Shown: positions 4,408 through 28,718 of the stretch, in pieces | How positions within the stretch are numbered: the first letter of the stretch is position 1 | How the letters are laid out: each line of letters begins with the position of its first letter | The notes under the pieces: generated by a model | What the model saw: the letters and a program-made list of their open reading frames with translations, nothing else | Told to the model about the DNA's origin: nothing | Database searches by the model: none | Translations under genes and position numbers: made by a program | Origin: Dehalococcoidia bacterium | GTDB lineage: Bacteria > Chloroflexota > Dehalococcoidia > Plut-88900 | Assembly: GCA_965197645.1 (NCBI GenBank) | Contig: OZ240219.1 | Span: 1,658,943-1,690,942, forward strand | Direction of reading: 5' to 3' | DNA length: 32,000 nt

Positions 4408-5124
4408 CTACTCGGCGGACTTGCGCTCGATGACGCCTCGAGCGTGGGCGTCTATCAAGTCGAAGAACTCGGGGTGGAACTTGGCGTCGATGCCCACCAC
4501 GTTGTTGCCGATCAGTATCAACCCGCTGACCCCTTCAAACACCACGCCGTCACAAAGCTGTCTATTCGAAAATGATATTCGGTACTCGGACCCGGAAGCG
4601 TCCAGCTCCCCAGAGGCGCCCGCACAGGAGAAGACGTTGGCGTCGTGCTCGTCGACGGCCGCGGCGGTCGATTCCATGAAGCCATCGAAAAGCCGTTTAG
4701 CCGCTTCCTCGTCCCCCAAGGACTGCATCCACCAGGTTGAGAAGAATCCACCGGAGTTCATGTCGCAACGAAGAATTGTCGAAGGTGTCTCACTCTGGTG
4801 AAACATCCGGAACACTCTATCGATGTTGATCTTCGGCTCGTTGTCCACATCGGCCTGGAAAACGTTGGTTACTTCGCCCAGCTCTCCGGGTATCGACATC
4901 AGGCAATCTTCGTCTCCCAGCGAGGTCATGTAGTCCCCGCCGGCGGCCGGGACCGAAGTCGGCGTATCGACTGGTGGAGAGGTTGGCTGTGCATCAGTCG
5001 TGGGCTCGGGGGCCGATTCGATGGGTTCAGCGGTCGACGGCTCGGACGTTCTGTTGCATGCGGCCAGGACAAGCACCAGCACGGCAACACAAATGATACA
5101 TAAAGCTGTTTTGCGAGGGTTCAT
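4408..5124 (-). CDS. Hypothetical lipoprotein
   Basis: 238 aa. Signal peptide ending in the lipobox LAAC (Cys23), then a Pro/Thr/Ser-rich linker and a four-Cys globular part. I recognise no family. Confidence 0.6.
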   Translation of the reverse strand: MNPRKTALCIICVAVLVLVLAACNRTSEPSTAEPIESAPEPTTDAQPTSPPVDTPTSVPAAGGDYMTSLGDEDCLMSIPGELGEVTNVFQADVDNEPKINIDRVFRMFHQSETPSTILRCDMNSGGFFSTWWMQSLGDEEAAKRLFDGFMESTAAAVDEHDANVFSCAGASGELDASGSEYRISFSNRQLCDGVVFEGVSGLILIGNNVVGIDAKFHPEFFDLIDAHARGVIERKSAE

Positions 5125-10416: not shown

Positions 10417-10446
10417 TTGACCCTGGAGCCCATTGATTACTACACT
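10417..10446 (+). promoter_or_regulatory. Candidate promoter for lgt
   Basis: TTGACC (10417-10422), an 18-nt spacer, then TACACT (10441-10446). It overlaps the ORF-track TTG start at 10433, which argues for the downstream ATG at 10505. Confidence 0.4.
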
Positions 10447-10504
10447 AGGTTATAGTTGGTACGGGGGACGCCGTTGTAAATCATATCGGCACATTTCCTG
10501 GCTT

Positions 10505-11317
10505 ATGCTCGAAATAGATCTCGATCCTAATCTGTTTGGCGGCCTTACCTGGCACGGGGTGTACACGGCCCTGGCGGTGGCTATGGCAGTGGTTGTCGTG
10601 GCCCGGCTGGCCCCCAAGCTGGACGTTGATCCCTCTGTAGTCTACTCTACAGCCACCTGGGCCGTCCCCGGCGGGATCGTAGGAGCCCGCTTGATTCACG
10701 TCATAGACCACTGGGGCTTCTACAGCGACAATCCCCTGGACATCATCTACTTTTGGCAAGGCGGCGTGGCCCTCTTCGGAGCGATACTCGGCGGGGCGTT
10801 GGTCGGTGTGGTCTACGCCCTGTTCCGGGGCTATCCGATGGCGAAGCTGGCGGACCTGACTGCTCCGGCATTGCTCATCGCCCAGGCCGTAGGGAGAGTC
10901 GGCGACGTTATCAACGGTGAGCACTTCAGCAATCCCACCGGCCTTCCCTGGTCCTGGGTACATATCCATGATCGCTGGCCGGGAAACCCCGTCCTGGCTC
11001 CGACGCCCAACGAGGGAGGCTACCATCCATCCGTGGGATACGAAATGGTACTGGACTGCGTCCTTCTATTCGTGGTCTGGAGACTCGTTGGAAGGGTCGC
11101 ACCCAACGGGATGGTCATGCTCATATACCTGGTCCTGTACTCGCTGGGGAGATTCGCCATCCAGTTCACCAGGGTAGATGCCGAACGCGCAGGCTCTCTG
11201 CAACAGGGACACATCATCGCCCTGGCTACCATCGGAGTGGCGCTGCTATGGATCGTCCTGCTTCAGGTGCGGCATCGCCAGAGGCTGGCCGGTGTCTCTG
11301 CAGCCGAACATCAGTAA
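10505..11317 (+). CDS. lgt: Prolipoprotein diacylglyceryl transferase
   Basis: Polytopic membrane protein with an Lgt-like N-terminus (IDLDPNLFGGLTWHGVY), YFWQGGVALFGAILGG and GRVGDVINGEHF...GLPWSW. ATG 10505 gives the usual short N-terminus. Confidence 0.85.
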   Translation: MLEIDLDPNLFGGLTWHGVYTALAVAMAVVVVARLAPKLDVDPSVVYSTATWAVPGGIVGARLIHVIDHWGFYSDNPLDIIYFWQGGVALFGAILGGALVGVVYALFRGYPMAKLADLTAPALLIAQAVGRVGDVINGEHFSNPTGLPWSWVHIHDRWPGNPVLAPTPNEGGYHPSVGYEMVLDCVLLFVVWRLVGRVAPNGMVMLIYLVLYSLGRFAIQFTRVDAERAGSLQQGHIIALATIGVALLWIVLLQVRHRQRLAGVSAAEHQ

Positions 11318-11355
11318 CCAACCGTAGCTCGGAACGTTATCTAAACGATAGCCTC

Positions 11356-11364
11356 TGATAGAAT
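11356..11364 (+). promoter_or_regulatory. Possible extended -10 promoter for ccdA
   Basis: TGaTAGAAT at 11356-11364 (TGn plus TAGAAT). There is no convincing -35 element. Confidence 0.3.
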
Positions 11365-11454
11365 GTGGGCAACTAGGCGTCCCTGAGTTCCTGGGAAGTC
11401 ATACGGCAGACTAGTACTGACAGACGGCAAGTAGCTGGTTAAGGGGATAGAGAC

Positions 11455-12273
11455 TTGGATTCCGATACGCAAGTCACATCGGGGGGTGTGCCCGGAATGG
11501 GGATAGTGAGGTCCTTCTCGCTGCCACCTTTCCTACATTCCCTGGCGTTTGTAACCGGCTTCTCCATAGTTTTCACCGCCCTGGGCGCCGCGATAGGCCT
11601 TGCTGGGCCGGGAGGCTGGAGGGACTGGCTCGAGATCGCCGCCGGCATCGTCCTCATCATCCTGGGGTTCAATCTCAGCGGAGTGATCAGATTCGGTCGG
11701 TTGACCGAGTTCCTGTACCGGGAACGGAAGCTCAACATCGGTGTGGGGGAAAGGCCCAGCTACTTCAGGTCCTCCGTGGTGGGATCGGCGTTTGCCATCG
11801 GTTGGACCCCCTGCGTCGGGCCGATACTGGCCGGCATTCTCTCCCTGACGCTGGAAGGCTCGGTAGTCCAGGGCGCTATATTGATGTTCGGCTACTCTTT
11901 GGGACTGGGAATACCCTTCTTGGGAGTCGGCGCCTTCCTGGGAGTCGCCAGGCGATGGCTGAGGAAGATCAATCCGTACATGGAAGCGATCGAGCTCTTC
12001 AGCGGACTCCTGCTGGTCTTCATCGGCGCCCTGATAGTCACCGATTCTCTGCTGCTGCTCAACAGCTACTTCTCATTCATCCCCGAGGTCACCGGCAGTG
12101 GAGAGGTCATCAGCATGGGGCTGGGATCACTGATAATCGCATTCGGCGGAGGAGTCCTCTCATTCCTGTCGCCGTGCATCCTGCCGCTGGTCCCCATCTG
12201 GCTCGGATACATGGCCGGCTCCACCCTGGATGGACAGCGCGCCGTTCCCCAGCCGGCGCCGTCCACCAGCTAG
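11455..12273 (+). CDS. ccdA: Cytochrome c biogenesis / thiol-disulfide transporter CcdA (DsbD family) with permuted helix order
   Basis: 272 aa, six predicted TM helices. Contains both DsbD-family Cys motifs: AIGWTPCVGPIL (Cys120) and LSFLSPCILPLVP (Cys241). The TTG start is preceded by the SD AAGGGGA (11441-11447) at 7 nt. The motif order is reversed relative to canonical CcdA (see findings). Confidence 0.8.
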   Translation: MDSDTQVTSGGVPGMGIVRSFSLPPFLHSLAFVTGFSIVFTALGAAIGLAGPGGWRDWLEIAAGIVLIILGFNLSGVIRFGRLTEFLYRERKLNIGVGERPSYFRSSVVGSAFAIGWTPCVGPILAGILSLTLEGSVVQGAILMFGYSLGLGIPFLGVGAFLGVARRWLRKINPYMEAIELFSGLLLVFIGALIVTDSLLLLNSYFSFIPEVTGSGEVISMGLGSLIIAFGGGVLSFLSPCILPLVPIWLGYMAGSTLDGQRAVPQPAPSTS

Positions 12274-13962
12274 TCACACCAGGACGGGGTCCAGATCCAG
12301 GATCTCCAGCCGCAGGGTGCCGGCCGAGGACCGGTTGTCCCGGCTCAACCGGTACACCAGCTCCACTACCGACCCGACCGCTGGCGCCCTGTCTCCGATG
12401 CCGAAGCCGATGGCATCCCAGACCGCCGGCCCATCCCGTAGCTTCAGCCTCAGGTGCCGCCCTTCGTCTCCCAGCAGCCTCACGTCGATGACCCTGGCGT
12501 CTTTGGCCAGGAATACGGGAGCCGGGTTTTGGAAACCGCAGGGCTCCAGCAGCCCCAGGAACTTGATCAGCCGCTTATCGATCCCCTTTATCGGTAACGC
12601 CGTATCGATTTTCTTCGACGGCCGAAGGTCCACTCCATCCAGCTCCTGGGACGCTAGCTCGACGAGCCGTTGCTGGAGGAGCCCCAGGTTTTCGTTGGCG
12701 ATAACGAATCCCGCCGCCTGGGCATGGCCTCCGTAACGGATGAACAGATCATCGCATTTACGGAACGCCGCGATGATATCGAAATCCGGAATGCTCCGCG
12801 CACTGGCCCTGGCGGTGTCTCCATCTATGGACATGACGATGGCAGGCCGGTAGAACTGCTCCACCAGCTTTCCCGCCGCCAGTCCTACGACTCCTGGGAG
12901 GAAGTCCTTAGCCCCGACCATGAGAATCGGCTGGTCCGATTGCCGGGCGACCACCTCTTCGACAGCCCTCTCTGTGACTTCGCTGCTGAGCTTTCGGCGC
13001 TCCCGGTTCTTGATCTCCAAATCCTGTGCCAACGGCCTCGCCTCTTCCGCCGAACCGGCGCAAAGAAGTCGATAGCTGATCATAGCGTGGTCCACACGGC
13101 CCGCCGCGTTGATACGAGGCCCCAACCCATAGGAGATCGATTCGGCGTCCAGGCTGCCTGGAGAGAGACCCGCCACCGATACCAGCTCCCTGATACCGGC
13201 CTTATCCGTCGAGTTCAGGACCTCCAGCCCCCTTTTGACCAGGGTCCTGTTCTCGCCGATGAGGGGCGCCACGTCTGCAATGGTACCTATAGCCACCAGA
13301 TCCAACAGGCTGTCGTCATCCTCCTTACCCCACGCTTCCCGCAGGGCTTGGACCAGCTTGTATGCCACGCCCACGGCGGAGAGGTGTAGAAACGGATAAC
13401 GGGACCCGTTCAGCTTAGGGTCGACGATGGCCAGTGCGGGAGGCAGCGTGGCGGGCGGCGTGTGGTGGTCTGTGATCACCACGTCCATCCCCATGTCCTG
13501 GGCCGTCACGACCTCGGAGTAGGAGCTGACCCCGCAATCTGCGGTGATGATAAGGGAGGCGCCTTGCTTGTGGAGAAATGTCAGGCCGAGAGAGCTGATA
13601 CCGTGCCCCTCGTCGGTACGGTGGGGGATGTAGGTCGTAGTCTTGGCGCCCAGCTTGCCCAGCCCGTGATGAAGCAGTGCAGATGAAGTGACTCCATCGG
13701 CATCGAAATCGCCGTGAATGCCTATAGTCTCGCCGGTTTCGATGGCGGCCTTTATCCGGCCAACCGCATCCTCCATCGAAGAAAATCGAAGCGGATCGTA
13801 CGTCGCTGTCTTCTCCGGGGACAGAAAGGAGATCAGCTCCGGGCGGTCCGCTATCCCGCGATTGTAGGCGAGATGAGCAATCGGAAATGGAACGTCAGGC
13901 AGGGCGCGTAAATAGGACTCGGGAGGGGGCGGGGACATGATCCAGCGGCGTTCCAGGTTCAT
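12274..13962 (-). CDS. recJ: Single-stranded-DNA-specific exonuclease RecJ
   Basis: 562 aa. DHH-family motifs IGIHGDFDADGVTS, IITADCG and VVITDHHTP, followed by a DHHA1-like region (GGHAQAAG). Confidence 0.9.
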   Translation of the reverse strand: MNLERRWIMSPPPPESYLRALPDVPFPIAHLAYNRGIADRPELISFLSPEKTATYDPLRFSSMEDAVGRIKAAIETGETIGIHGDFDADGVTSSALLHHGLGKLGAKTTTYIPHRTDEGHGISSLGLTFLHKQGASLIITADCGVSSYSEVVTAQDMGMDVVITDHHTPPATLPPALAIVDPKLNGSRYPFLHLSAVGVAYKLVQALREAWGKEDDDSLLDLVAIGTIADVAPLIGENRTLVKRGLEVLNSTDKAGIRELVSVAGLSPGSLDAESISYGLGPRINAAGRVDHAMISYRLLCAGSAEEARPLAQDLEIKNRERRKLSSEVTERAVEEVVARQSDQPILMVGAKDFLPGVVGLAAGKLVEQFYRPAIVMSIDGDTARASARSIPDFDIIAAFRKCDDLFIRYGGHAQAAGFVIANENLGLLQQRLVELASQELDGVDLRPSKKIDTALPIKGIDKRLIKFLGLLEPCGFQNPAPVFLAKDARVIDVRLLGDEGRHLRLKLRDGPAVWDAIGFGIGDRAPAVGSVVELVYRLSRDNRSSAGTLRLEILDLDPVLV

Positions 13963-14026: not shown

Positions 14027-14719
14027 CTACCAGGGAGAGGAACCGTGTTTGTCTCGATAGTCGTTGTAGTCCACCGCCAGATTGTATGCCCTGCTGGTAA
14101 GGTAGATCCACACGGTCAACGACAAAGCGATGAAAATGTAGGCTACGTCTACTTCCCGGCCGATGCCGATGACGGTGAACGTTATGGCCAGCGCGGAGAG
14201 CCAACGTGCTATTCCAGATATGTTGGCGGCTCTGATCTCAGGATAGGCCCATGCCATCAAGAGACCCCATACCACCACCCCAAACGCCCAAAAGAGGGGG
14301 TGGTCTTTACCTATCTCATTGAGTCCGAGATATGTCGCCCACGTCGCCGCACCGGCCAGGAGAAGCAATATACCGGTGGACTTCTTGCCCACGTAGAAAT
14401 GCCCGATGCCCCAGACTCCGAAAACACCGGTCAGCGAGGCCAGCATACCAGCCAACTCGGGGTCCTTGCCGGGCAGGGCGGGCTCGTCTCCTACCTGAGC
14501 GTGAGATGGGATTGGAGGGAAAATGAAGCCCCGGTATCCCGGAAGCTTTAGCGGCGCGTCGTGCTGTTTGACGGCGTCGGGATCTACCGAGTAGGCTAAC
14601 TCACGGGGTATGGGAGCCCAGTTGGTCTCGTCACAGCTATCACATTCCTCTTGGTCTGCGGGCGCCAGCGTAGAGCAGCTACGGCATACTTTGGAGTCCG
14701 TTACGCCTCGAACGCCCAT
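14027..14719 (-). CDS. Membrane protein with an N-terminal zinc-ribbon and a TM2-like domain
   Basis: 230 aa. CRSC...CDSC (two CxxC pairs) at the N-terminus, then about 4 TM helices including GVFGVWGIGHFYVGKK, which resembles the TM2-domain signature. Function unknown. Confidence 0.5.
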   Translation of the reverse strand: MGVRGVTDSKVCRSCSTLAPADQEECDSCDETNWAPIPRELAYSVDPDAVKQHDAPLKLPGYRGFIFPPIPSHAQVGDEPALPGKDPELAGMLASLTGVFGVWGIGHFYVGKKSTGILLLLAGAATWATYLGLNEIGKDHPLFWAFGVVVWGLLMAWAYPEIRAANISGIARWLSALAITFTVIGIGREVDVAYIFIALSLTVWIYLTSRAYNLAVDYNDYRDKHGSSPW

Positions 14720-14813: not shown

Positions 14814-15176
14814 CTACTCTCCTCCGGAGCCGGGCGAAACCAGCTTGCCTATTCCGGCGTACTTGAAGTCTTGTCCTGAGTAGCACCTGTAGGCGCCGAA
14901 CAGAGAGTAAACAACGGCTGCCAGTATCAACACTAGACCGATCTCGGCCAGCGCATTAAGAATAATAAAGTATATGAAGATAGCGATAGCTTGGAAGATG
15001 AATGCCTGCAACGCCTGGGTACCCACGTACTGGGATGTCTTTCTCTTGAACAGCCAGATGACCATGGCGCCGATGACACCCAGCAAGGGGAGCACGGGGA
15101 TGATGTTCACCACCATGATGGCGTGGGCTATGGCCGCCCACATCTTCTCGTCAGACGACCTAGTTTCAGAGTTCAT
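14814..15176 (-). CDS. Small membrane protein, DUF4870-like
   Basis: 120 aa. EKMWAAIAHA...VIWLFKRKTSQYVGTQALQAFIFQ fits the DUF4870 pattern of 3-4 TM helices. Confidence 0.55.
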   Translation of the reverse strand: MNSETRSSDEKMWAAIAHAIMVVNIIPVLPLLGVIGAMVIWLFKRKTSQYVGTQALQAFIFQAIAIFIYFIILNALAEIGLVLILAAVVYSLFGAYRCYSGQDFKYAGIGKLVSPGSGGE

Positions 15177-15209
15177 TCTCGCCGCCGAGTCCCACAGAAT
15201 TAAAAGAAT

Positions 15210-15238
15210 ACATTAGTACAACCCCGCACTTACGTCAA
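15210..15238 (-). promoter_or_regulatory. Sigma-70-type promoter for the DUF4870 gene
   Basis: The minus strand reads TTGACG (15238-15233), a 17-nt spacer, then TAATGT (15215-15210). It lies about 34 nt upstream of the ATG at 15176. Confidence 0.5.
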
Positions 15239-15366
15239 CTTTTTGGCAGTCTTTCCCGGAGGAAACATTTACCCCTTGGTACTACTTGTAACGCTTCAAC
15301 GGTGGGTATGATTTCTTGCAGCCTTCTGTTTTCCGCTGGTATGGCGAGACACCGGGGGATAGGAGG

Positions 15367-16608
15367 TCAGCCCTGGTACTCTTTGAAAATGAGCACCGAG
15401 TTGTGCCCCCCGAATCCAAGGGAGTTGGAAAGGGCCACTTTTATCTTGCCTCTTCGAGGCGTGTAAGGGGTGTAGTCCAAGTCGCAATCCGGGTCGGGAT
15501 TTTCCAGATTGATAGTGGGTGGTATCTCACCGTTCTTGACCGACAGGGCGGTGACGGTCGCTTCCAGGGCTGCCGCTGCACCGATCAGGTGGCCGGTCAT
15601 CGATTTGGTGGAGCTTATGGGTATCTTGTACGCTTCCTCCCCAAACACTGACTTGATAGCAATGGTTTCGAACTTGTCGTTCAGTTGGGTGGAGGTCCCG
15701 TGAGCGTTGATGTAGTCGATTTCGTCGGGCTCTACGTTGGCCTCATCCAAGGCCATCTTCATCGCCTGGACGCTCCCCGCTCCCCCTTCGGCTGGAGCTG
15801 TGAGGTGGTAAGCATCACCTGATGAGCCGTATCCCGCCAGCTCAGCGAGAATGGGAGCACCCCTGGCTACAGCGTAATCCAGGTCCTCCAAGACCACTAT
15901 CGCGGCGCCCTCGCCCATAACGAATCCATCACGCTCGGCGTCGAAGGGTCTGCAGGCCTTCTCCGGCTCGTCGTTCCGAGTAGAAAGGGCTTTGGCCGAA
16001 TTGAATCCTGCGACTGCTATAGGGGTTATCGGCGCCTCGGCGCCTCCGGTAACAAAGGCCTTGGTGCGTCCGCTTTTAATCATCTGGAACGCCATGCCGA
16101 TGGCATCGCTGCCGCTGGCGCAGGCGGACGTGGTGCAAAAATTCGGCCCCTTGGCGCCCAGGTCGATGGAGACGTACCCAGGGCCCATGTCCGTGATCAT
16201 CATTGGCACCAGGAAGGGGCTTATGCGGGACGGCCCCTTCTCCGCCAGTACCTCGAACTGTTGAGACAGGGTGATCAACCCGCCGATGCCGCTGCCTATT
16301 ACCACCCCTACGTCCTCGGCATTGGAATCGTCGATGGTAAGCTCGGCCCGGTTGACCGCTTCCCGGCTCGCTGCAACGGCGAACTGGACGAAACGGTCCA
16401 TGCGGCGGGCCTCTTTGCGTCCGAAGTAATCGGTGGGGACGAAATCGGAAGCTTCGGCGGCGATGTGGGTATCGAAGGGCTCGGAATCGAAGGCGGTAAT
16501 ATGGCCGACGCCGGACTTACCGGCCAGAAGGCCCTTCCAGGTGGAATCCGTATCCAGACCCAGAGGACTGACGATCCCTGTACCGGTTACGACTACCCGG
16601 TGGTTCAA
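15367..16608 (-). CDS. fabF: Beta-ketoacyl-ACP synthase II
   Basis: 413 aa with a TTG start giving MNHRVVVTGTG. Active-site Cys context TTSACASG, and the His-His pair in NAHGTST and SMTGHLIGAAA. Confidence 0.9.
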   Translation of the reverse strand: MNHRVVVTGTGIVSPLGLDTDSTWKGLLAGKSGVGHITAFDSEPFDTHIAAEASDFVPTDYFGRKEARRMDRFVQFAVAASREAVNRAELTIDDSNAEDVGVVIGSGIGGLITLSQQFEVLAEKGPSRISPFLVPMMITDMGPGYVSIDLGAKGPNFCTTSACASGSDAIGMAFQMIKSGRTKAFVTGGAEAPITPIAVAGFNSAKALSTRNDEPEKACRPFDAERDGFVMGEGAAIVVLEDLDYAVARGAPILAELAGYGSSGDAYHLTAPAEGGAGSVQAMKMALDEANVEPDEIDYINAHGTSTQLNDKFETIAIKSVFGEEAYKIPISSTKSMTGHLIGAAAALEATVTALSVKNGEIPPTINLENPDPDCDLDYTPYTPRRGKIKVALSNSLGFGGHNSVLIFKEYQG

Positions 16609-16631
16609 GCCCTCTTTACCTTCGAGCTCTT

Positions 16632-18176
16632 CTATGCGTTGCTTTGCGCCTCGGCCCGGACGCCGTCATTGGCCTTTTCGAGGATCTCGATACCCGAGTC
16701 GTAGGTGCTGATATCGGACAGGGTCTTGTACTGTCGCAGGAACCTCATGATGCTCTCTCTGGTCGTTGAGACCTCCCGGAGCATCTTCCTGACGCGGTCG
16801 AACCCGCCATCGCCGACGGACCGCCACAGCGAGGCGTATTGCTCATAGAACTTGTTGTGGTTGAGGTTGGTCGGCAACACGCTGTGCAGGAAGTCGAAGA
16901 ACCTGGGTTCGCTGGTTACCAGGGTGTCCTGTACGTCGTTCCACTGCTTGGTGCCGGGCAGGGGGGTGAGAATAGTGTAGTTGGGGAACTCTATCTTGGT
17001 CTGATGCACCTTTTCTTTAAGGTTATCGAAGTTCTTTTCCGCCCAGCCCTGGAAGATTATTACACCGCCCCAGATGCGGACGCCAACGCTGTGCAGAATG
17101 TCGATGGCTTTCTCGTTGTCCCCAACACGGGTGCCTTTCGAAACGGAATTGAGGGTGTCCTGTTCAAAGGACTCCAGGCCCACCAGGGTGGTGTCCAGGC
17201 CGGCTCTGGCCCACTTCTCGAATTTTCGAGGGTTGCGGACCACGTTGTCCGCTCTTACCTGCATCCAGTATCGCTGACCCAGGTCCAGCTCGATGAGCCG
17301 ATCGGCCAAGTCCTCCATCGGATCGTAACCGTCGGCGTTCTGGAGCTTCATTGCGCCCGAGGGCTCGGGGATGGCCAGATCGTCCACTATGTTTATCCAC
17401 GAATTTCTCGGAAGCTGGGATAGCTCCTGGATAGTGCGGTCGTTGCCCTGGACTTTGAACTCGCCCCGGTGGAACTCGTGGACCGAGCAGAAGTTGCAGC
17501 GATACTGGCAACCTCTGGCCGTTTCGACGGAGTAGGGGTTGGTGTGGTAGAGGAAGAAGTACTGGTCCCTGTACCTATCCACCAGATGACGCGCCGGGAA
17601 CGGTCTGCCGTTCATCATCGGTGAATCCATCTCTTTGAGGGAGCTCTTCTTCTGGAACATCAGATTCGTGGTATCGAAGTTGCCCTCAGAGTCCTGGAAG
17701 ATGACTTCGCCCACTCCGTTGAGCCCTTTGCCCTGTTGCAGGTTCAGCACTATCTGCCGGAATGTGGCCTCGCCATCGCCAATCACTATAGCGTCCACGT
17801 GGGGAGAGTAGGCGTCTCGAGGCACCAAACTCACGTGGTGGCCGCCCACAACGACCGGCACGTCCGGGTCGATGGCTTTAACCCAACCCGCCACCTCTTT
17901 AACCGAGTCGACGTCTACGGTGTAGCCCTCTTTTATTCCCACCAGGTCCGGGGCGAACTCTTCCATCACCTGCCGCAGCGGGGTATCGTCCACCCGCATA
18001 TCGAAAATCATTACGTCGGCCAGGTCTATGATGCCGCCGCCCAGGTACTGGAGGCCCAACGGTTCGACTACTACCGTGGCATTGAAGCCTACGTATAGAT
18101 TGTTGGGCGGTTCAATGAGGAGTACTTTCCGTGCCTTGGGGAAATTCCTAACACGGACGGATGATACGACGGCCAT
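16632..18176 (-). CDS. B12-binding-domain radical SAM protein (class B rSAM), function unknown
   Basis: 514 aa. The N-terminal cobalamin-binding-type domain contains KVLLIEPP...VEPLGLQYLGG...VVVGGHH. The radical SAM CxxxCxxC is ARGCQYRCNFC (Cys223/227/230, nt 17487-17510). Its stop is 23 nt upstream of the fabF start. Confidence 0.85.
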   Translation of the reverse strand: MAVVSSVRVRNFPKARKVLLIEPPNNLYVGFNATVVVEPLGLQYLGGGIIDLADVMIFDMRVDDTPLRQVMEEFAPDLVGIKEGYTVDVDSVKEVAGWVKAIDPDVPVVVGGHHVSLVPRDAYSPHVDAIVIGDGEATFRQIVLNLQQGKGLNGVGEVIFQDSEGNFDTTNLMFQKKSSLKEMDSPMMNGRPFPARHLVDRYRDQYFFLYHTNPYSVETARGCQYRCNFCSVHEFHRGEFKVQGNDRTIQELSQLPRNSWINIVDDLAIPEPSGAMKLQNADGYDPMEDLADRLIELDLGQRYWMQVRADNVVRNPRKFEKWARAGLDTTLVGLESFEQDTLNSVSKGTRVGDNEKAIDILHSVGVRIWGGVIIFQGWAEKNFDNLKEKVHQTKIEFPNYTILTPLPGTKQWNDVQDTLVTSEPRFFDFLHSVLPTNLNHNKFYEQYASLWRSVGDGGFDRVRKMLREVSTTRESIMRFLRQYKTLSDISTYDSGIEILEKANDGVRAEAQSNA

Positions 18177-19372: not shown

Positions 19373-20764
19373 ATGAAAGCCTCCCCTCCGTCCGCACCGA
19401 ACCCCGTTAGAGTGGCCGTAGCCACCCACGGCTGCAAGCTCAACCAGGCGGAATCCGATTCCATCAGCCGATCCTTCAGCGAGGCCGGTTGCCAAGTTGT
19501 CGATCCCAAGGGGCAGGCCGACATCTACGTCCTGAATACCTGCTCGGTGACCCACGTGGCCGAGAGCAAGGCCCGAAGATGGCTTCGCTCGGCTCATCAC
19601 AGGAACCCTCAAGCCTCGATAATCGCCACGGGGTGCTACTCGTCCCGGGCCGAGGAGGAGTTGGAGGGACTCGAAGGAGTTAGTCTGGTTGTAGGCAACC
19701 AAGACAAAGGTCGGCTAGCCGAGATCGTTGAGATTTCTGGACTGCTGGAGAAGCACGGCTCCCTGCCCATCTCGACGGGCACAACTAACCCATTCGCATC
19801 GCCGCTTCATCGTACCAGGGCGGCGGTCAAGATCCAGGACGGGTGCAACCAGTTCTGCGCTTTCTGTGTGGTCCCTCTCACACGGGGAAGAGAGTCCAAT
19901 CTGCCCATGGACGACGTGATAGAGCTGGTGAGAAGCAAGGTCGAGGAGGGTTACAAAGAGGTAGTGTTGACCGGCCCTCAGATCGGCTCTTATGGGCTTT
20001 ACCCCCCGACCGCCGAGGCCCGCAAGGACTACGATTCATATGACGGGCGTCTTCACAGGCTTATCGAAAGGGTCCTCGGCGAGACCGAGATAGAGCGCCT
20101 GCGCATCTCTTCCATCCAGCCCCAGGACCTCACCGATAGCCTACTCAGGACGTGGGAAGACCCGAGGCTCTGCCGGCATGTCCATATGGCTCTTCAAAGC
20201 GGCAGCGATGCCGTCCTCCAGCGAATGCGCCGCAGATATCGCTCCCCCCAGTACCGGGAGGCGGTGGAGCGTTTGAGGGAGGCTGTACCGGGCATAGCCA
20301 TAACCACCGACGTAATTGTGGGATTTCCTCAGGAGACCGACAAGGAGTTCGACGAGGGATACCAGTTCTGCCTGGAGATGGGCTTTGCAGGGATGCACGT
20401 GTTCCCCTATTCCCCCAGGCCCGGCACCTCCGCCGCAGAGATGCAGAGCGGGCTGCCTGAATCCGATAAGAAGTACAGGCTAGACAGGATGCTCGCCCTC
20501 GCCCACGATAGCGCTTCCCGATTCCGCAGGTCCTTCATTGGTCAGAAGTTCGGCGTACTCTGGGAGGATCAGGAACAGATAGCAGAGCGTTCAATGTGGT
20601 CCGGTCTGACCGATAACTACATTCGGGTCTACTCCGACGATGAGAGACTATCCACCAACCAGATCACATCGACCCTACTGACGACACAGTTGGACAACGG
20701 ATTGCTGGGTGTTCCGGACGTGAACGTCGAGTCCATGTCCGGCGTAAGAGTAAGCCTGAACTGA
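19373..20764 (+). CDS. mtaB: MiaB-family radical SAM methylthiotransferase, MtaB-like
   Basis: 463 aa. N-terminal UPF0004 domain with three Cys (THGCKLNQ, LNTCSVT, ATGCYS), a radical SAM CNQFCAFC, and a C-terminal TRAM-like region. The subfamily (MtaB versus MiaB or RimO) is inferred from the N-terminal pattern only. Confidence 0.75.
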   Translation: MKASPPSAPNPVRVAVATHGCKLNQAESDSISRSFSEAGCQVVDPKGQADIYVLNTCSVTHVAESKARRWLRSAHHRNPQASIIATGCYSSRAEEELEGLEGVSLVVGNQDKGRLAEIVEISGLLEKHGSLPISTGTTNPFASPLHRTRAAVKIQDGCNQFCAFCVVPLTRGRESNLPMDDVIELVRSKVEEGYKEVVLTGPQIGSYGLYPPTAEARKDYDSYDGRLHRLIERVLGETEIERLRISSIQPQDLTDSLLRTWEDPRLCRHVHMALQSGSDAVLQRMRRRYRSPQYREAVERLREAVPGIAITTDVIVGFPQETDKEFDEGYQFCLEMGFAGMHVFPYSPRPGTSAAEMQSGLPESDKKYRLDRMLALAHDSASRFRRSFIGQKFGVLWEDQEQIAERSMWSGLTDNYIRVYSDDERLSTNQITSTLLTTQLDNGLLGVPDVNVESMSGVRVSLN

Positions 20765-21891
20765 TGGGGACCGGATTGCGGCTTTCCCCTCTTCTGCTGA
20801 TTGTAGCAGCCCTCATCGCGGCCGCCTGTAGCGGGGACCCAGAGGAGCCCGAGACGCCGACGGCGGAAACATCTACGCCGACCGCCATCGCTACCTCGAC
20901 TCCAACTCCTACAGCGACGCCAACCCCAACTGCCCAGCCTGTGTCCGCCTCATTGCTGCCGTATACCAGTGATGCCCACGGCGCGACACTGATGGCCCCA
21001 GAAGGCTGGGTGGCGTACGAAGGCAACCCAGACGTACTGACCATCACCAATCCAACTGGCATTGCCGGCATAGAGATCAGGTTCAGCACCTTTCTCGCCG
21101 AACCGACCCCGGCCCAGTTCGATGAATTTGTCAGCCTGAGAATACTATCCTTACAAGCGGAGGTCCCCGGGTTCGAGGAGGTCTCGAGGGAGCGGCTCAC
21201 CGACCCGCCCGGATTCATCATAGCGTACACCTCCGATGAAACGGGAACTGTAGTCCTGTATACGTACAGTGGCGCCAGAGGCGTGGAGGCCGTGGCCACT
21301 ACCGAGCGGGTCTTCTTCTCAAACTTCCGGTCGCTGTTTGAGCAGGTGTTGAGATCTTTGTCCCTGGCGGCCACTCCCCCCGCTCCCACCCCGACACCCG
21401 GCCCCACCGCTTCTCCAACTCCTACGCCCATACCAACCCCCCTGTCCACCATAGCACCGGGACGCTACACCAACGATCAGTTCGGCTTCACCTTGGAGGT
21501 CCCGCTGGGCTGGGGCCTGCTGGCGCCTGCGAAAGAGGATGAGGTGCGGTTCATAGGACCGGAACGCGTCATCGTGCAGGTGTTGACCGGCCGCACAGCT
21601 GCGGGAATGAGCAACGCCGACTTCTCTCAGGCGTTGGTCGAGAGCCGGTACGAGCCGCTAGCCGGATTCAACATCGAATCGGAAGATGACGTGACCCATG
21701 GAAACCTGGCGGGCCGCGAGCTTCGATTCACGGCCAGTACGGGGTTGGGCGGGGCTACTCAAAAGTACCTGGTGCTGGTCACGAAACGAGGGATAAGGGC
21801 CTACGTGATAGAGGCCATCGGTCCGGAATCGGCCTTCGAAGACTACGGGGCGGAGATAGAGGCCTTAGTCTCCAGCTTCCGCCTGCGATGA
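20764..21891 (+). CDS. Hypothetical two-domain lipoprotein with Pro/Thr linkers
   Basis: 375 aa. Signal peptide plus the lipobox IAAAC (Cys22). PT-rich linkers at residues 28-59 and 202-227 each precede a globular module of about 140 aa. The ATG overlaps the mtaB stop (TGATG at 20762-20766). Confidence 0.65.
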   Translation: MGTGLRLSPLLLIVAALIAAACSGDPEEPETPTAETSTPTAIATSTPTPTATPTPTAQPVSASLLPYTSDAHGATLMAPEGWVAYEGNPDVLTITNPTGIAGIEIRFSTFLAEPTPAQFDEFVSLRILSLQAEVPGFEEVSRERLTDPPGFIIAYTSDETGTVVLYTYSGARGVEAVATTERVFFSNFRSLFEQVLRSLSLAATPPAPTPTPGPTASPTPTPIPTPLSTIAPGRYTNDQFGFTLEVPLGWGLLAPAKEDEVRFIGPERVIVQVLTGRTAAGMSNADFSQALVESRYEPLAGFNIESEDDVTHGNLAGRELRFTASTGLGGATQKYLVLVTKRGIRAYVIEAIGPESAFEDYGAEIEALVSSFRLR

Positions 21892-24516: not shown

Positions 24517-24541
24517 GTGGCATTACGTGGGGATGAGTGGG
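24517..24541 (+). promoter_or_regulatory. Putative MraZ operator: three GTGG(C/G) direct repeats at 10-bp phasing
   Basis: GTGGC at 24517, GTGGG at 24527 and GTGGG at 24537, each followed by a 5-nt spacer, immediately downstream of the -10. The pattern resembles the described MraZ boxes, which are three TGGGN-type repeats at 10-bp spacing in the mraZ promoter region. Confidence 0.55.
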
Positions 24542-24561
24542 GAATTCTTTTATCTACCGTT

Positions 24562-24987
24562 ATGTTTCTTGGTGAGTACGAGTATCGTATCGACCAGAAG
24601 GGAAGGATCGCGGTGCCGCCCAGATTTCGAGAGTCCTTTGCAACTGGCATCGTAGTCACCCGCGGGTACGATAGGTGTGTGGTGGCCTACACCCTCGCCG
24701 AGTGGAACAAGGTCAGCGAGGACTACGCCTCCCTCCCCACAACGAGCGCCAGCTCTCGCAGACTCAACCGCCTCATCTTCACTAATGCCTTCAGCCTGTA
24801 TCTAGACCGGTTGGGCCGGTTCATCCTTCCTCCCTCCCTGAAGGAATACGCCCAGATTCAGGACGAAGTCGTTATTGCCGGCGTCGGGACTTACCTGGAG
24901 GTATGGGGCAGGGAGGGCTGGAGCCAGGAACGGACCGCCATGGAAGACCAGGCAGCCGAAATAGCGGAAGGACTGCATCCGGAATAG
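24562..24987 (+). CDS. mraZ: Transcriptional regulator MraZ
   Basis: The conserved N-terminus MFLGEYEYRIDQKGRIAVP starts at ATG 24562. The second SpoVT-AbrB repeat is LDRLGRFILP. The ORF-track GTG at 24517 lies inside the operator and would add 15 aa with no MraZ counterpart. Confidence 0.9.
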   Translation: MFLGEYEYRIDQKGRIAVPPRFRESFATGIVVTRGYDRCVVAYTLAEWNKVSEDYASLPTTSASSRRLNRLIFTNAFSLYLDRLGRFILPPSLKEYAQIQDEVVIAGVGTYLEVWGREGWSQERTAMEDQAAEIAEGLHPE

Positions 24988-24989
24988 GT

Positions 24990-25916
24990 ATGCAAAAGAG
25001 CTTCAGCCAGGTCCCCGTTATGGTCTCGGCGGTGCTCGAGGGACTTGACGTCAAGCCTGGAGGCCGGTATGTCGACTCTACCCTGGGGGAAGGCGGCCAC
25101 TCGGAAGCCATCCTTCGGGCCGTCCAACCGGACGGTCGAGTGCTGGGCATAGACGCCGACTCCTCTGTCGTAGAGGTAGCCAAGGGTAGGCTGCAGCAGT
25201 TCGGTCAGTCCTTCCGTGCCGTAGCCGGCAACCACTCCCGCATCGAAGAGATCTGCTCAAACGAGGACTTCCTTCCGGTTGAGGGAGTCCTCTTTGACCT
25301 GGGCGTCTCGTCTTTCCAGCTAGACAGGGCGTTGCGGGGCTTTAGCTTTCAGCGCAAGGGACCACTGGACATGAGGTTCGACACCGAACAGGCCCTGACC
25401 GCCGACGACGTGGTCAACACGTGGCCGGAGCAGGACCTGGCACGGAGCCTGAAGGAGTACGGAGAGGAGCCCCGGAGCCGCCGAATCGCCCGGGCCATCG
25501 TTTCTGCCCGCCCCATCTCTTCGACCGTGGAGCTGTCCAAGATCGTGCAACGGGAAATCCCAGGCGCCGGCAGAAGGACTCACCCTGCAACCAGGACGTT
25601 CCAGGCCTTGAGAATCGTCGTGAACCGGGAACTGGACAAGATCGCGAAAGCCCTGGACCAGGTGGCCGACCTTCTGATGACCGGAGGGCGATTGGCGGTC
25701 ATCACCTATCACTCCCTGGAGGCGAGAATCGTCAAGGACTACCTGCGCCGAGAATCGAAGGACTGCATCTGTGCACCTGAACAGCCTGTATGCACCTGTG
25801 ACCACAAGGCCACCATGGTAACGATCACCAAGAAGGCCATCGGCCCCGACGCGAGCGAAATCGAAGCAAATCCCCGCTGCAGAAGCGCCAAGCTTCGAGT
25901 GGGCCAGCGAATCTAG
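24990..25916 (+). CDS. rsmH: 16S rRNA (cytosine1402-N4)-methyltransferase
   Basis: From ATG 24990: VPVMVSAVLEGL...YVDSTLGEGGHS, FDLGVSS.QLD, TFQALRI.VN.EL and ITYHSLE are RsmH/MraW signatures. The upstream in-frame extension overlaps mraZ and is Gly/Arg-rich. Confidence 0.9.
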   Translation: MQKSFSQVPVMVSAVLEGLDVKPGGRYVDSTLGEGGHSEAILRAVQPDGRVLGIDADSSVVEVAKGRLQQFGQSFRAVAGNHSRIEEICSNEDFLPVEGVLFDLGVSSFQLDRALRGFSFQRKGPLDMRFDTEQALTADDVVNTWPEQDLARSLKEYGEEPRSRRIARAIVSARPISSTVELSKIVQREIPGAGRRTHPATRTFQALRIVVNRELDKIAKALDQVADLLMTGGRLAVITYHSLEARIVKDYLRRESKDCICAPEQPVCTCDHKATMVTITKKAIGPDASEIEANPRCRSAKLRVGQRI

Positions 25917-25948
25917 ATGGACTTCCGGGAACGGAAGGGAGGGGCGTA

Positions 25949-27229: not shown

Positions 27230-27263
27230 CAGGTATTAGAGGGGAAGGGAAAGGAGCGGACCA

Positions 27264-28394: not shown

Positions 28395-28476
28395 GAAACC
28401 CGTTCTAACCTAGGGACGGATACCGGCTCCCCTTTCCTCCCGAAAGGCCCCCTGGAAAACCCCGGGTTCGTGGTCA

Positions 28477-28512
28477 GGCTCCGATGGCACACCCAGCTGT
28501 CGGAGCCCTTTT
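28477..28512 (+). terminator. Rho-independent terminator after ftsZ
   Basis: Stem GGCTCCGA (28477-28484) / TCGGAGCC (28500-28507), then CTTTT (28508-28512). A further T7 run lies at 28522-28528. Confidence 0.6.
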
Positions 28513-28635
28513 GCGCACCCCTTTTTTTCAGCCTGCTGGAAACCCGGGACCATGGGCGGCCCCGACGGTGCCCCGCACCGTCGAGGTCGTTCTATACACA
28601 TCTTAATTCCCCTCCGAAATTCATGTACAATTGTA

Positions 28636-28664
28636 TTGACACACCCACTATCTTGTGGTAATTT
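28636..28664 (+). promoter_or_regulatory. Promoter of nrdR(-nrdJ)
   Basis: TTGACA (28636-28641), a 17-nt spacer ending in TGg, then TAATTT (28659-28664). Confidence 0.6.
28643..28658. promoter_or_regulatory. NrdR box 1 (weaker), inside the promoter spacer
   Basis: ACCCACTATCTTGTGG matches the published 16-bp NrdR-box consensus acaCwAtATaTwGtgt at about 12 of 16 positions. Confidence 0.55.
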
Positions 28665-28673
28665 CACTCGGCA

Positions 28674-28689
28674 ACACAATATATTGTGG
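28674..28689. promoter_or_regulatory. NrdR box 2 (strong), just downstream of the -10
   Basis: ACACAATATATTGTGG matches the NrdR-box consensus at 15 of 16 positions. It starts exactly 31 bp after box 1, about three helical turns, the spacing typical of tandem NrdR boxes. Confidence 0.7.
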
Positions 28690-28718
28690 TTGAAACCCTC
28701 TACCAAAGACTGCTTATC

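What the first reader, a model, noticed from the sequence alone, without database searches (positions are those of the whole stretch)
11455..12273. CcdA with circularly permuted transmembrane order (TM1 Cys motif moved to the C-terminus)
Canonical CcdA/DsbD-core proteins (for example B. subtilis CcdA) run in this order:
- TM1 (..LSFxSPCxLPLxP..)
- TM2 (..LGFSxxFxxLG..)
- TM3
- TM4 (..GWTPCxGPIL..)
- TM5
- TM6

In this ORF the recognisable blocks appear in a different order:
- TM2-like FLHSLAFVTGFSIVFTALGA (res 26-45)
- TM3-like helix
- AFAIGWTPCVGPILAGIL (Cys120, nt 11812-11814)
- TM5-like helix
- TM6-like LLLVFIGALIVTD
- A roughly 25-aa linker
- GGGVLSFLSPCILPLVPIWLGYMAGS (Cys241, nt 12175-12177) as the final helix, about 20 residues before the stop

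The 137 nt upstream of the start (11318-11454) carry stop codons in all three forward frames, so no separate TM1 is encoded there.

By the positive-inside rule canonical CcdA is N-out/C-out. Appending TM1 after TM6 therefore keeps every helix in its original orientation, changing only the termini to N-in/C-in. That makes the permutation topologically allowed.

This is the product expected from a tandem ccdA-ccdA fusion trimmed at both ends. I am not aware of a described natural circular permutant of this transporter family.
Basis: partly seen in the sequence, partly recalled or inferred. Interest (0 to 1): 0.7.

Follow-up and report, generated by a model that had tools for sequence, protein, structure and literature searches.

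The report
Naturally circularly permuted CcdA transporter
This gene encodes the membrane electron carrier CcdA with its first helix, which holds one of its two catalytic cysteines, moved to the end of the protein; the rearranged form is conserved, common in Chloroflexota bacteria, exists in a second version too, and is labelled in databases as ordinary CcdA.

Summary
ORF 11455-12273 (272 aa) contains all six CcdA helices in the order TM2-3-4-5-6-1. Against a profile of canonical relatives it gives two out-of-order matches. After in-silico de-permutation it gives one collinear full-length match. It also aligns collinearly across the junction of a tandem canonical CcdA.

It is not an artefact. 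More than 170 distinct proteins share the order, many on multi-Mb contigs, and two orthologues sit in the same uvrC-xerC-lgt-ccdA-recJ synteny. dN/dS is 0.09, and the relocated helix has dN = 0. Both cysteines are invariant. Loop charge bias indicates that every helix keeps its orientation, giving N-in/C-in termini. Relatives lie in a ccm operon or directly upstream of membrane-anchored CPPC thioredoxin-like genes, so the protein probably works as a normal thiol-reductant shuttle.

Beyond the finding:
- The permutation changed order at least twice. A long subclass shares a rare insertion and core phylogeny with canonical-order proteins.
- A second permutant family (TM4-5-6-1-2-3) exists, with at least 120 clusters, mostly in Dehalococcoidia.

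No tandem-fusion intermediate was found, the 3D comparison was inconclusive, and no prior description turned up in the searchable literature.

The parts
11441..11446 (+). Shine-Dalgarno-like AAGGGG, 8 nt upstream of the TTG start
   Evidence: Sequence read. The start is also supported by the conserved MxSxTQ N-termini of homologues P0003-P0008.
11455..12273 (+). Circularly permuted ccdA (272 aa plus stop), helix order TM2-3-4-5-6-1
   Evidence: dN/dS is 0.088 against the 93%-identical orthologue.
11455..11529 (+). New N-terminal cytoplasmic tail (residues 1-25), derived from the distal part of the former TM1-TM2 loop. Poorly conserved.
   Evidence: dN/dS is about 1. pLDDT is below 50. The N-tail median is 19 aa across the family.
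11530..11604 (+). TM2-like helix (residues 26-50; FLHSLAFVTGFS...LG)
   Evidence: Aligns to 5vkv residues 39 onward and to canonical hmm position 50 onward. AF2 helix 23-50.
11623..11685 (+). TM3-like helix (residues 57-77)
   Evidence: AF2 helix 55-75. Hydropathy core 65-75.
11686..11763 (+). Cytoplasmic TM3-TM4 loop (residues 78-103), 6 K+R
   Evidence: This loop is the breakpoint of the type-B permutants and the site of the insertion in the long class.
11764..11847 (+). TM4 helix with the GWTPCVGPIL motif. Catalytic Cys120 is the codon at 11812-11814.
   Evidence: Cys120 is invariant in 105 aligned family members.
11866..11940 (+). TM5-like helix (residues 138-162)
   Evidence: AF2 helix 137-164. 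Aligned to 5vkv.
11980..12045 (+). TM6-like helix (residues 176-197; LLLVFIGALIVTD)
12046..12126 (+). Extracytoplasmic linker joining the old C-terminus (after TM6) to the old N-terminus (before TM1): residues 198-224, 0 K+R, acidic
   Evidence: Aligns across the copy junction of tandem canonical P0045. Junction comparison.
12127..12204 (+). Relocated TM1 helix (residues 225-250; GGVLSFLSPCILPLVP). Catalytic Cys241 is the codon at 12175-12177.
   Evidence: 47.8 bits, i-E 1.4e-16 to canonical hmm 7-46. 27 bits to 5vkv residues 4-35. dN = 0 at dS = 0.58. Cys241 invariant.
12205..12270 (+). New C-terminal cytoplasmic tail (residues 251-272), derived from the proximal part of the former TM1-TM2 loop (GYMAGSTLDGQRAVP against canonical GYLGGASVRSEGRVP)
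10433..11317 (+). lgt (prolipoprotein diacylglyceryl transferase), the conserved upstream neighbour
   Evidence: Pfam LGT 169 bits. Same neighbour in L001 and L086. ccdA-Redoxin-lgt in L013 and L022.
12274..13962 (-). recJ, a convergent neighbour whose stop codon abuts the ccdA stop
   Evidence: Pfam DHH, DHHA1 and RecJ_OB. Synteny.

Best explanation
The ORF encodes a functional, naturally circularly permuted CcdA.

Shown:
- It contains all six helices and both catalytic-cysteine motifs of the CcdA/DsbD membrane core.
- The polypeptide starts at TM2 and ends with TM1.
- The old C- and N-termini are joined by an acidic linker of about 27 residues on the outer face.
- The new termini come from cutting the cytoplasmic TM1-TM2 loop.
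- The order is conserved under strong purifying selection.

Inferred:
- Every helix keeps its original orientation, so the protein is N-in/C-in instead of N-out/C-out and folds into the same six-helix bundle.
- It works like canonical CcdA. Cytoplasmic thioredoxin reduces the Cys120-Cys241 pair in the membrane, and the pair then reduces an extracytoplasmic, membrane-anchored thioredoxin-like protein (CPPC Redoxin / CcmG / ResA type). That protein serves cytochrome c maturation or other envelope thiol reduction.
- It arose by tandem duplication and in-frame fusion of ccdA, followed by loss of TM1 from the first copy and TM2-6 from the second.
For: Order and completeness:
- Out-of-order matches to 5vkv and to a canonical profile. 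The de-permuted sequence gives one collinear hit, hmm 7-237, 246 bits.
- Collinear alignment across a tandem canonical junction: 47% identity over 243 columns.

Reality of the gene:
- 64 of the top 120 hits, 91 of the first 268 proteins, and 74 of 80 new hits from the tandem-query search are permuted.
- Orthologues at 93% and 72% identity share the uvrC-xerC-lgt-ccdA-recJ synteny on 87-kb and 3.43-Mb contigs.
- The P0016 cluster has 78 members on many Mb-scale contigs.

Function retained:
- dN/dS is 0.088 overall. For the TM1 segment, dN = 0 with dS = 0.58.
- C120, C241 and the flanking motifs are invariant in 105 sequences.

Topology:
- Predicted inside loops carry about 10 K+R, against about 1 outside. 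The linker is acidic.
- The charge pattern is the same loop by loop in 176 canonical, 88 type-A and 3 type-B proteins.

Pathway:
- P0050 lies in CcmE-cytochrome c-CcmA-CcmB-CcmC-permuted CcdA-Redoxin-glutaredoxin-like.
- L013 and L022 have permuted ccdA followed by an anchored CPPC Redoxin. L014 has a Redoxin/Thioredoxin_10 protein downstream.

Origin:
- The type-A C-tail after the TM1 Cys has a median of 30 aa, about the same as the whole canonical Cys-to-TM2 span (31 aa). There is also a 19-aa N-tail, so the loop is kept at both ends.
- Junctions resemble the C-tail plus N-terminus of near canonical relatives.
Against: - No biochemical or genetic test was possible.
- AF2 models are only moderate (pLDDT 67 and 60; pTM 0.61 and 0.52).
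- The window itself has no thioredoxin-like partner or cytochrome c maturation gene, so the pathway assignment for this particular gene is by homology.
- No 12-TM tandem-fusion or partly trimmed intermediate was found.
- I could not check whether the same genome also keeps a canonical ccdA.
Confidence: 0.85

Rival explanations
1. Assembly or annotation artefact: a chimeric contig, a collapsed tandem repeat, or a wrongly joined sequence creates an apparent permutation.
For: The window is an uncultured-organism sequence, and read coverage cannot be inspected.
Against: The same order, at the same breakpoint, occurs in more than 170 non-identical proteins from ENA, NCBI, JGI and Logan assemblies. 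Syntenic orthologues lie on 3.43-Mb and 87-kb contigs. Substitutions between orthologues are overwhelmingly synonymous. Stops occur in all frames upstream.
Confidence: 0.01
2. A decaying remnant of a tandem ccdA duplication: a non-functional pseudogene-like fusion on its way to loss.
For: The order is what a partly deleted tandem pair would give. The window has no partner gene nearby.
Against: dN/dS is 0.09 overall, and dN = 0 in the relocated helix. Both Cys and the flanking motifs are invariant across proteins down to about 37% identity. The length and termini are conserved. Permuted genes occupy the CcdA slot of a ccm operon and of ccdA-Redoxin pairs.
Confidence: 0.03
3. The C-terminal helix is an unrelated SPC-containing segment, and the real TM1 is supplied in trans by another gene, so this would be a split CcdA rather than a permuted one.
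For: The motif is short, and hydrophobic helices can match by composition.
Against: The segment scores 47.8 bits (i-E 1.4e-16) to canonical hmm 7-46 and 27 bits to 5vkv TM1. The alignment runs on through the former loop (GYMAGSTLDGQRAVP). No TM1-only ORF lies upstream or anywhere in the window. The helix is the most constrained part of the gene.
Confidence: 0.02
4. Same protein, different origin: the permutation arose by gene fission (TM1 | TM2-6) and re-fusion in the opposite order, or by another rearrangement, rather than by tandem duplication and trimming.
For: No tandem 12-TM fusion or partly trimmed intermediate was found among the best hits to a tandem query.
Against: The TM6-to-TM1 junction aligns collinearly with canonical C-tail plus N-terminus, with few gaps. 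Both termini retain loop-derived sequence, 30 + 19 aa against a 31-aa canonical span, which duplication predicts and fission does not. A second permutant with another breakpoint but the same TM6-TM1 junction (type B) is the other product expected from trimming a tandem fusion. No split genes were seen.
Confidence: 0.1
5. All type-A permutants descend from a single ancient event. The apparent scatter among canonical proteins would then be phylogenetic noise, horizontal transfer or gene conversion.
For: The sequences are short and saturated, and only NJ trees were possible. Several NJ 'clades' share junction similarity (A-i with P0121, P0137 with P0151, P0236 with P0239), so 20 events is certainly an overestimate.
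Against: The long permuted class shares a homologous insertion of about 80 aa in the TM3-TM4 loop with canonical-order proteins P0135, P0120, P0144 and P0237 (42-49% identity end to end after de-permutation). An insertion-free core tree groups those two sets with only 1 extra taxon and excludes the window's clades in 86 of 100 bootstraps. Fitch steps number 17-23 in all bootstraps.
Confidence: 0.15

Closest known systems
Canonical CcdA (Thermus thermophilus CcdA, PDB 5vkv; Archaeoglobus fulgidus CcdA, 2n4x; B. subtilis, R. capsulatus and S. pneumoniae CcdA)
   Same: It has the same six helices and the same two Cys motifs (xSFLSPCxLPLVP and GWTPCxGPIL). The loop charge pattern is the same. The expected partners are the same: thioredoxin-like Redoxin/CcmG/ResA/Etrx proteins and ccm genes (PMC3322552, PMC3914529).
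   Different: The helix order is cyclically shifted by one (TM2-3-4-5-6-1). The termini are inferred to be cytoplasmic instead of outside. A new outside linker of about 27 aa joins the old termini. The catalytic TM1 is synthesised last.
DsbD beta domain and ScsB beta domain (the 8-TM members of the same superfamily)
   Same: [quoted passage not shown] Weak NCBIfam hits to DsbD and TsoB cover the TM2-TM6 region.
   Different: It has no periplasmic alpha or gamma domains and no extra TM7-8. Scores are far below the DsbD subfamily cut-off (31 against 330 bits). The helix order is permuted.
Type-B permuted CcdA found here (TM4-5-6-1-2-3; e.g. P0127, P0445)
   Same: It belongs to the same superfamily and has the same TM6-to-TM1 junction and the same inferred N-in/C-in topology. 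It also occurs in Chloroflexota, is annotated 'CcdA', and sits in a thiol-redox neighbourhood.
   Different: The breakpoint is in the TM3-TM4 loop (profile position about 122-127) instead of the TM1-TM2 loop, so the two 3-helix repeats are simply swapped. 80 of 120 members have a third Cys, and the sequences printed show an SPCC motif at the active site.
Permutation by duplication in soluble proteins (swaposin/saposin, DNA methyltransferases), recalled from my own knowledge and not tested here
   Same: The same evolutionary route is proposed: tandem duplication, in-frame fusion, then trimming at both ends.
   Different: Those are soluble domains. Here the permuted units are transmembrane helices, so only cuts that preserve helix orientation are allowed.
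Ancient circular permutation inferred for the ZIP metal-transporter fold (preprint PMC13192868)
   Same: It is a helix-level permutation in a transporter built from inverted repeats.
   Different: In ZIP the event is a deep inference from internal symmetry. Here the canonical and permuted forms coexist at 45-60% identity, so the event is recent enough to be read directly from the sequences.

Membership tests
CcdA / DsbD_TM (Pfam PF02683) | Profile match above the curated threshold | tested here: met
   DsbD_TM scores 61.4 bits against a cut-off of 27.1. DsbD_2 scores 41.6 against 24.9. The best stretch covers only profile positions 45-215, because TM1 lies elsewhere.
CcdA / DsbD_TM (Pfam PF02683) | Two redox-active cysteines in the conserved TM1 (SPCxLPxxP) and TM4 (WTPCxGPxL) motifs | tested here: met
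   Cys241 lies in SFLSPCILPLVP and Cys120 in GWTPCVGPIL. Both are invariant in 105 family members.
CcdA / DsbD_TM (Pfam PF02683) | Six transmembrane helices | tested here: met
   There are six hydrophobic helices by hydropathy and AF2 secondary structure. All six align to canonical profile segments.
CcdA / DsbD_TM (Pfam PF02683) | Collinear order TM1 to TM6 with both termini outside | tested here: not met
   The order is TM2-3-4-5-6-1. Charge bias places both termini inside. This is the one departure, so it is filed as a permuted variant of the family rather than a canonical member.
CcdA / DsbD_TM (Pfam PF02683) | Same three-dimensional fold as solved CcdA (5vkv, 2n4x), with the two Cys adjacent in the membrane | tested here: inconclusive
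CcdA / DsbD_TM (Pfam PF02683) | Transfers reducing equivalents from cytoplasmic thioredoxin to an extracytoplasmic thioredoxin-like protein | not testable with these tools
   Only context is available. Permuted relatives sit in a ccm operon and next to anchored CPPC Redoxins. No partner is encoded in the window itself.
Circular permutant (by definition) | The same segments occur in cyclically shifted order, and the protein aligns collinearly to a tandem duplicate of the unpermuted protein | tested here: met
   blastp of query 26-265 against tandem P0045 positions 52-284 gives 47% identity, 13 gaps and E = 3e-55. The de-permuted sequence gives a single collinear profile hit.
Circular permutant (by definition) | The original termini are joined by a linker, and the new termini are created inside a former loop | tested here: met
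   The linker is residues 198-224. The tails are derived from the TM1-TM2 loop.
DsbD proper (NCBIfam NF001419) | Full-length match including the periplasmic alpha and gamma domains | tested here: not met
   31.3 bits against a cut-off of 330. Only the membrane core matches.

The most novel reading that the evidence does not exclude
CcdA is a polytopic membrane protein that has been circularly permuted repeatedly in nature. There were at least two separate order changes at the TM1/TM2 loop, plus a distinct repeat-swapped form cut at the TM3/TM4 loop. All keep the cyclic helix order and the helix orientations and move both termini to the cytoplasm. The forms are abundant in Chloroflexota and appear sporadically in MAGs labelled Eremiobacterota and archaea. 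If so, the fold and the thiol-relay function do not depend on the order in which helices leave the ribosome, even when the catalytic TM1 is made last. An N-in topology, which avoids translocating the N-terminus, may be repeatedly favoured. None of this appears to have been described, and all members are annotated as plain CcdA.
Probability: 0.5. Interest if true: 0.78.

Novelty: new variant of a known kind. Interest (0 to 1): 0.68.

Why it matters
- **Membrane protein folding.** Natural circular permutants of polytopic membrane proteins are rarely documented, because most cuts would flip helices. Here the canonical and permuted forms coexist at 45-60% identity, with two different breakpoints. 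That gives a natural experiment on whether helix synthesis and insertion order matters for folding an inverted-repeat transporter. In the window's form, the catalytic TM1 is inserted last.
- **Mechanism.** The CcdA models built on 5vkv and 2n4x can be tested against proteins in which TM1 is tethered to TM6 rather than to TM2.
- **Structural biology.** The permuted forms place both termini in the cytoplasm, which may suit fusion or termini-restraining strategies.
- **Annotation.** Profile searches report only a partial match, and databases call these proteins ordinary CcdA. Domain-order-aware annotation would be needed to see them.
- **Evolution.** The data give sequence-level support for permutation by duplication in a membrane protein, and suggest it can recur.

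Tried and rejected
- **Structure comparison.**
  - Two AF2 runs, with 53 and 105 sequences, gave only moderate models.
  - Foldseek against the PDB returned no significant match and did not even list 5vkv, despite clear sequence homology. I therefore treat that null as uninformative.
  - Model coordinates are not exposed, so Cys-Cys distance and helix packing could not be measured.
- **Tandem-fusion intermediates.** A tandem query (two copies of residues 23-258) found no 12-TM protein. The longer hits (P0269, P0270, P0293, P0342) are canonical cores with two extra C-terminal helices, not intermediates.
- **lgt linkage.** I tested whether the acceptor Redoxin is an Lgt-dependent lipoprotein, as in S. 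pneumoniae Etrx (PMC3914529). The adjacent Redoxins have TM anchors and CPPC motifs but no lipobox, so this was rejected.
- **Junction-versus-termini scoring.** It worked for a few lineages, but the segments (28-40 aa) are too short to be decisive overall. I therefore do not claim about 20 origins from the NJ/Fitch count.
- **Literature.** PMC11205269 matched 'CcdA' plus 'circular permutation' only in its reference list. The Bushweller 2020 review (PMC7485265) is not held.
- **Local partner.** The window has no thioredoxin-like ORF and no second ccdA.
- **Cultured host.** Cluster look-ups gave only MAG labels.
Full report
**1. Observation**

The ORF is present exactly as described: 11455..12273 on the + strand, 272 aa. 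Its TTG start is preceded by AAGGGG at 11441-11446. The N-terminus MDSDTQ matches the MxSxTQ starts of its closest homologues. The 137 nt upstream contain 3, 5 and 4 stop codons in the three forward frames. A CcdA profile finds no other CcdA-like ORF anywhere in the window.

**2. Is the order really permuted?**

Yes.
- phmmer against the PDB aligns residues 225-256 to residues 4-35 of Thermus CcdA (5vkv, TM1) and residues 25-209 to residues 39-213.
- Pfam DsbD_TM is well above threshold, but its best stretch covers only profile positions 45-215.
- I built a profile from 55 canonical-order relatives. The native protein gives two out-of-order domains: hmm 50-237, then hmm 7-46, the latter at 47.8 bits and i-E 1.4e-16.
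- Moving residues 215-258 to the front gives one collinear domain, hmm 7-237, 246 bits.
- Against a tandem copy of the nearest canonical protein (P0045 twice), the native protein aligns in one piece across the copy junction, with 47% identity over 243 columns and 13 gaps.

These are the formal criteria of a circular permutation.

**3. Artefact or real gene?**

It is real.
- Of the best 120 database hits, 64 have the permuted order and 55 the canonical order.
- With an exhaustive search added, 91 of 268 proteins are out of order by the profile test. A further search added 74 more.
- Many lie on contigs of 1-6 Mb.
- Orthologues at 72% and 93% identity sit in the same uvrC-xerC-lgt-ccdA-recJ arrangement as the window, on a 3.43-Mb and an 87-kb contig.
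- Against the 93% orthologue, dN/dS is 0.088 overall. In the relocated TM1 helix, dN = 0 while dS = 0.58. Only the first 24 residues evolve freely.
- Cys120, Cys241 and their flanking motifs are invariant in 105 aligned members.

**4. Topology**

In the window protein, the loops predicted to be cytoplasmic (N-tail, TM3-4, TM5-6, C-tail) carry 12 K+R, and the others carry 1. Family-wide the figures are about 10 against about 1, and the TM6-to-TM1 linker is acidic.

Mapped on the canonical profile, the charge pattern is the same loop by loop in 176 canonical, 88 type-A and 3 type-B proteins. So each helix keeps its orientation. The old outside termini are joined by the linker, and the new termini are cytoplasmic. 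That canonical CcdA is N-out/C-out is established knowledge of the DsbD/CcdA family, and it agrees.

**5. Function**

The window is a housekeeping region: DHDPS, purA, uvrC, xerC-like, lgt, recJ, fabF-like, radical-SAM genes, trmD, mraZ-rsmH-ftsA-ftsZ and ribonucleotide reductase. It has no thioredoxin-like gene.

Relatives are more informative.
- A long-class permuted protein (P0050) lies in CcmE-cytochrome c-CcmA-CcmB-CcmC-small ORF-permuted CcdA-Redoxin-glutaredoxin-like.
- In L013 (Anaerolineales) and L022 (Chloroflexota), the permuted gene is followed by a membrane-anchored CPPC Redoxin and then lgt.
- In L014 it is followed by a Redoxin/Thioredoxin_10 protein.

These are the classic CcdA partner arrangements (PMC3322552; PMC3914529). 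I therefore infer the normal thiol-relay mechanism.

**6. Origin**

The junction aligns with canonical C-tail plus N-terminus. In canonical proteins the span from the TM1 Cys to the TM2 motif has a median of 31 aa. In permuted proteins the C-tail after that Cys has a median of 30 aa, and there is an additional 19-aa N-tail. So both ends keep loop-derived sequence, as expected if a tandem fusion was trimmed at both ends. The window's C-tail GYMAGSTLDGQRAVP still matches the canonical GYLGGASVRSEGRVP.

No 12-TM or partly trimmed intermediate was found, so the route remains inferred.

**7. One event or several?**

On an NJ tree of de-permuted sequences, the permuted state needs about 20 changes, with 17-23 in bootstraps and about 73 for shuffled labels. 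Each permuted clade has a canonical protein at least as close as any other permuted clade. I do not trust the number 20. The sequences are short, only NJ was available, and junction similarities link several of these clades to each other.

Two independent lines give a firm lower bound of two events.
- The long permuted class (about 340-370 aa) shares a homologous insertion of about 80 residues in the TM3-TM4 loop with canonical-order proteins P0135, P0120, P0144 and P0237. After de-permutation they align at 42-49% identity end to end.
- A tree from match columns only, which excludes the insertion, groups these two sets with a single extra taxon. It excludes the window's clades in 86 of 100 bootstraps.

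For some lineages the junction also looks like the termini of their own nearest canonical relative. Examples are P0129 against P0092, type B against P0124, and A-ii against P0064.

**8. A second permutation**

Three cluster representatives, and then all 120 hits of a dedicated search, have the order TM4-5-6-1-2-3, with the breakpoint at profile position about 122-127 in the TM3-TM4 loop. One is a complete gene with an upstream in-frame stop and nothing CcdA-like nearby. Another sits on a 591-kb Dehalococcoidia contig among Redoxin, Thioredoxin_3 and Thioredoxin genes. This form swaps the two three-helix repeats and shares the TM6-TM1 junction with type A.

**9. Distribution**

In a scan of reference genomes, 9 of 80 loci were type A. 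Eight were Chloroflexota (Dehalococcoidia, Anaerolineae, Chloroflexia) and one was labelled Woesearchaeota. All Proteobacteria, Acidobacteriota, Nitrospirota and other phyla were canonical. Distant type-A clusters carry the labels Eremiobacterota and 'archaeon'. Every named member is a MAG and is annotated simply as CcdA.

**10. Structure**

AF2 gives six helices plus short amphipathic segments. The TM1-like helix is broken at the SPC motif, and its confidence is similar to that of the other helices. Overall pLDDT is 67 and 60. Foldseek against the PDB found nothing, and the other libraries were unavailable. Fold identity is therefore inferred from sequence, not shown.

**11. Novelty**

Searches of the open-access library found no description of a permuted member. 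The queries paired CcdA or DsbD with circular permutation, permut*, inverted repeat or Chloroflexi. The main superfamily survey defines DsbD, CcdA and ScsB classes and never mentions permutation. Subscription literature is not covered, so prior description cannot be excluded.

I classify this as a new variant of a known kind. It has the known family, the known chemistry and a rearranged architecture.

**12. Verdict**

The gene is a functional-looking, conserved circular permutant of CcdA. The wider picture is what gives the finding its interest: a large family, more than one origin, and a second breakpoint. The main gaps are experimental function, the 3D superposition, and a rigorous phylogeny.

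Noticed in passing
L085:192-1016; L087:6001-6828; proteins P0123, P0127, P0133, P0349-P0467: There is a second, different circular permutant of CcdA with order TM4-5-6-1-2-3 and its breakpoint in the TM3-TM4 loop. At least 120 clusters at 64-80% identity are labelled Dehalococcoidia or Chloroflexi, and the genes are complete. On a 591-kb contig one lies among Redoxin, Thioredoxin_3 and Thioredoxin genes. 80 of 120 members have a third Cys, and the sequences printed show an SPCC motif.
   Followed up: partly
Proteins P0049-P0112 (permuted, about 340-370 aa) and P0120, P0135, P0144, P0237 (canonical order); L004:6001-7029: An insertion of about 80 residues, with extra hydrophobic helices, lies between TM3 and TM4. 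It occurs in both canonical-order and permuted proteins, so this subfamily probably has 8 helices. What the insertion does is unknown.
   Followed up: partly
window 10433-11317 (lgt) next to 11455-12273; L013:6001-8108; L022:1485-3587: Permuted ccdA is repeatedly linked to lgt: lgt-ccdA in the window, L001 and L086, and ccdA-Redoxin-lgt in L013 and L022. The neighbouring Redoxins have no lipobox, so a lipoprotein acceptor does not explain the link. It remains unexplained.
   Followed up: partly
window 12271-12276: The stop codon of ccdA (12271-12273) directly abuts the stop codon of the convergent recJ (12274-12276), leaving no intergenic space. In L001 the gap is 17 nt.
   Followed up: no
L086:6865-8554: In the 93%-identical relative, recJ is called as two ORFs (69 aa RecJ_OB plus 489 aa). 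The record name reads '5x', possibly 5x coverage, so this is probably a sequencing frameshift rather than a real split.
   Followed up: no
L014:6001-7798 (MAG labelled Candidatus Woesearchaeota); P0214 ('archaeon'); P0239/P0481 (Eremiobacterota): Type-A permuted CcdA occurs outside Chloroflexota, including archaeal-labelled MAGs. In L014 it is followed by a Redoxin + Thioredoxin_10 protein, an architecture that, from memory, resembles the C-terminal part of mycobacterial DipZ. This could reflect horizontal transfer, independent origin or mis-binning.
   Followed up: no
window 24517-28394: mraZ and rsmH are followed directly by ftsA and ftsZ, with no mur, ftsW or PBP genes between them. This would fit a Dehalococcoidia-type organism lacking peptidoglycan, but the rest of the genome is not visible.
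   Followed up: no
window 14027-14719 (-), 4408-5124 (-), 20764-21891 (+), 28410-29057 (-): Four sizeable ORFs (215-375 aa) have no Pfam match. The 230-aa one downstream of recJ is conserved in position in L001 and L086 (229 aa, no Pfam).
   Followed up: no
window 14814-18176 (-): A DUF4870 membrane protein, a FabF-like ketoacyl synthase and a B12-binding radical-SAM enzyme are conserved as a block next to recJ in the window, L001 and L086.
   Followed up: no
Proteins P0269, P0270, P0293, P0342 (314-330 aa; one labelled Spirochaetia): These are canonical-order CcdA cores with two additional C-terminal hydrophobic helices ending in a conserved W(L/F)T(F/Y)QG(I/L) motif. They are an 8-TM CcdA variant without DsbD-type soluble domains.
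   Followed up: no
L030:7959-8917: Near a Chloroflexia permuted ccdA lie a PCYCGC-motif protein and a COX2/cupredoxin-like protein. This hints at a link to copper-centre or oxidase maturation in that lineage.
   Followed up: no
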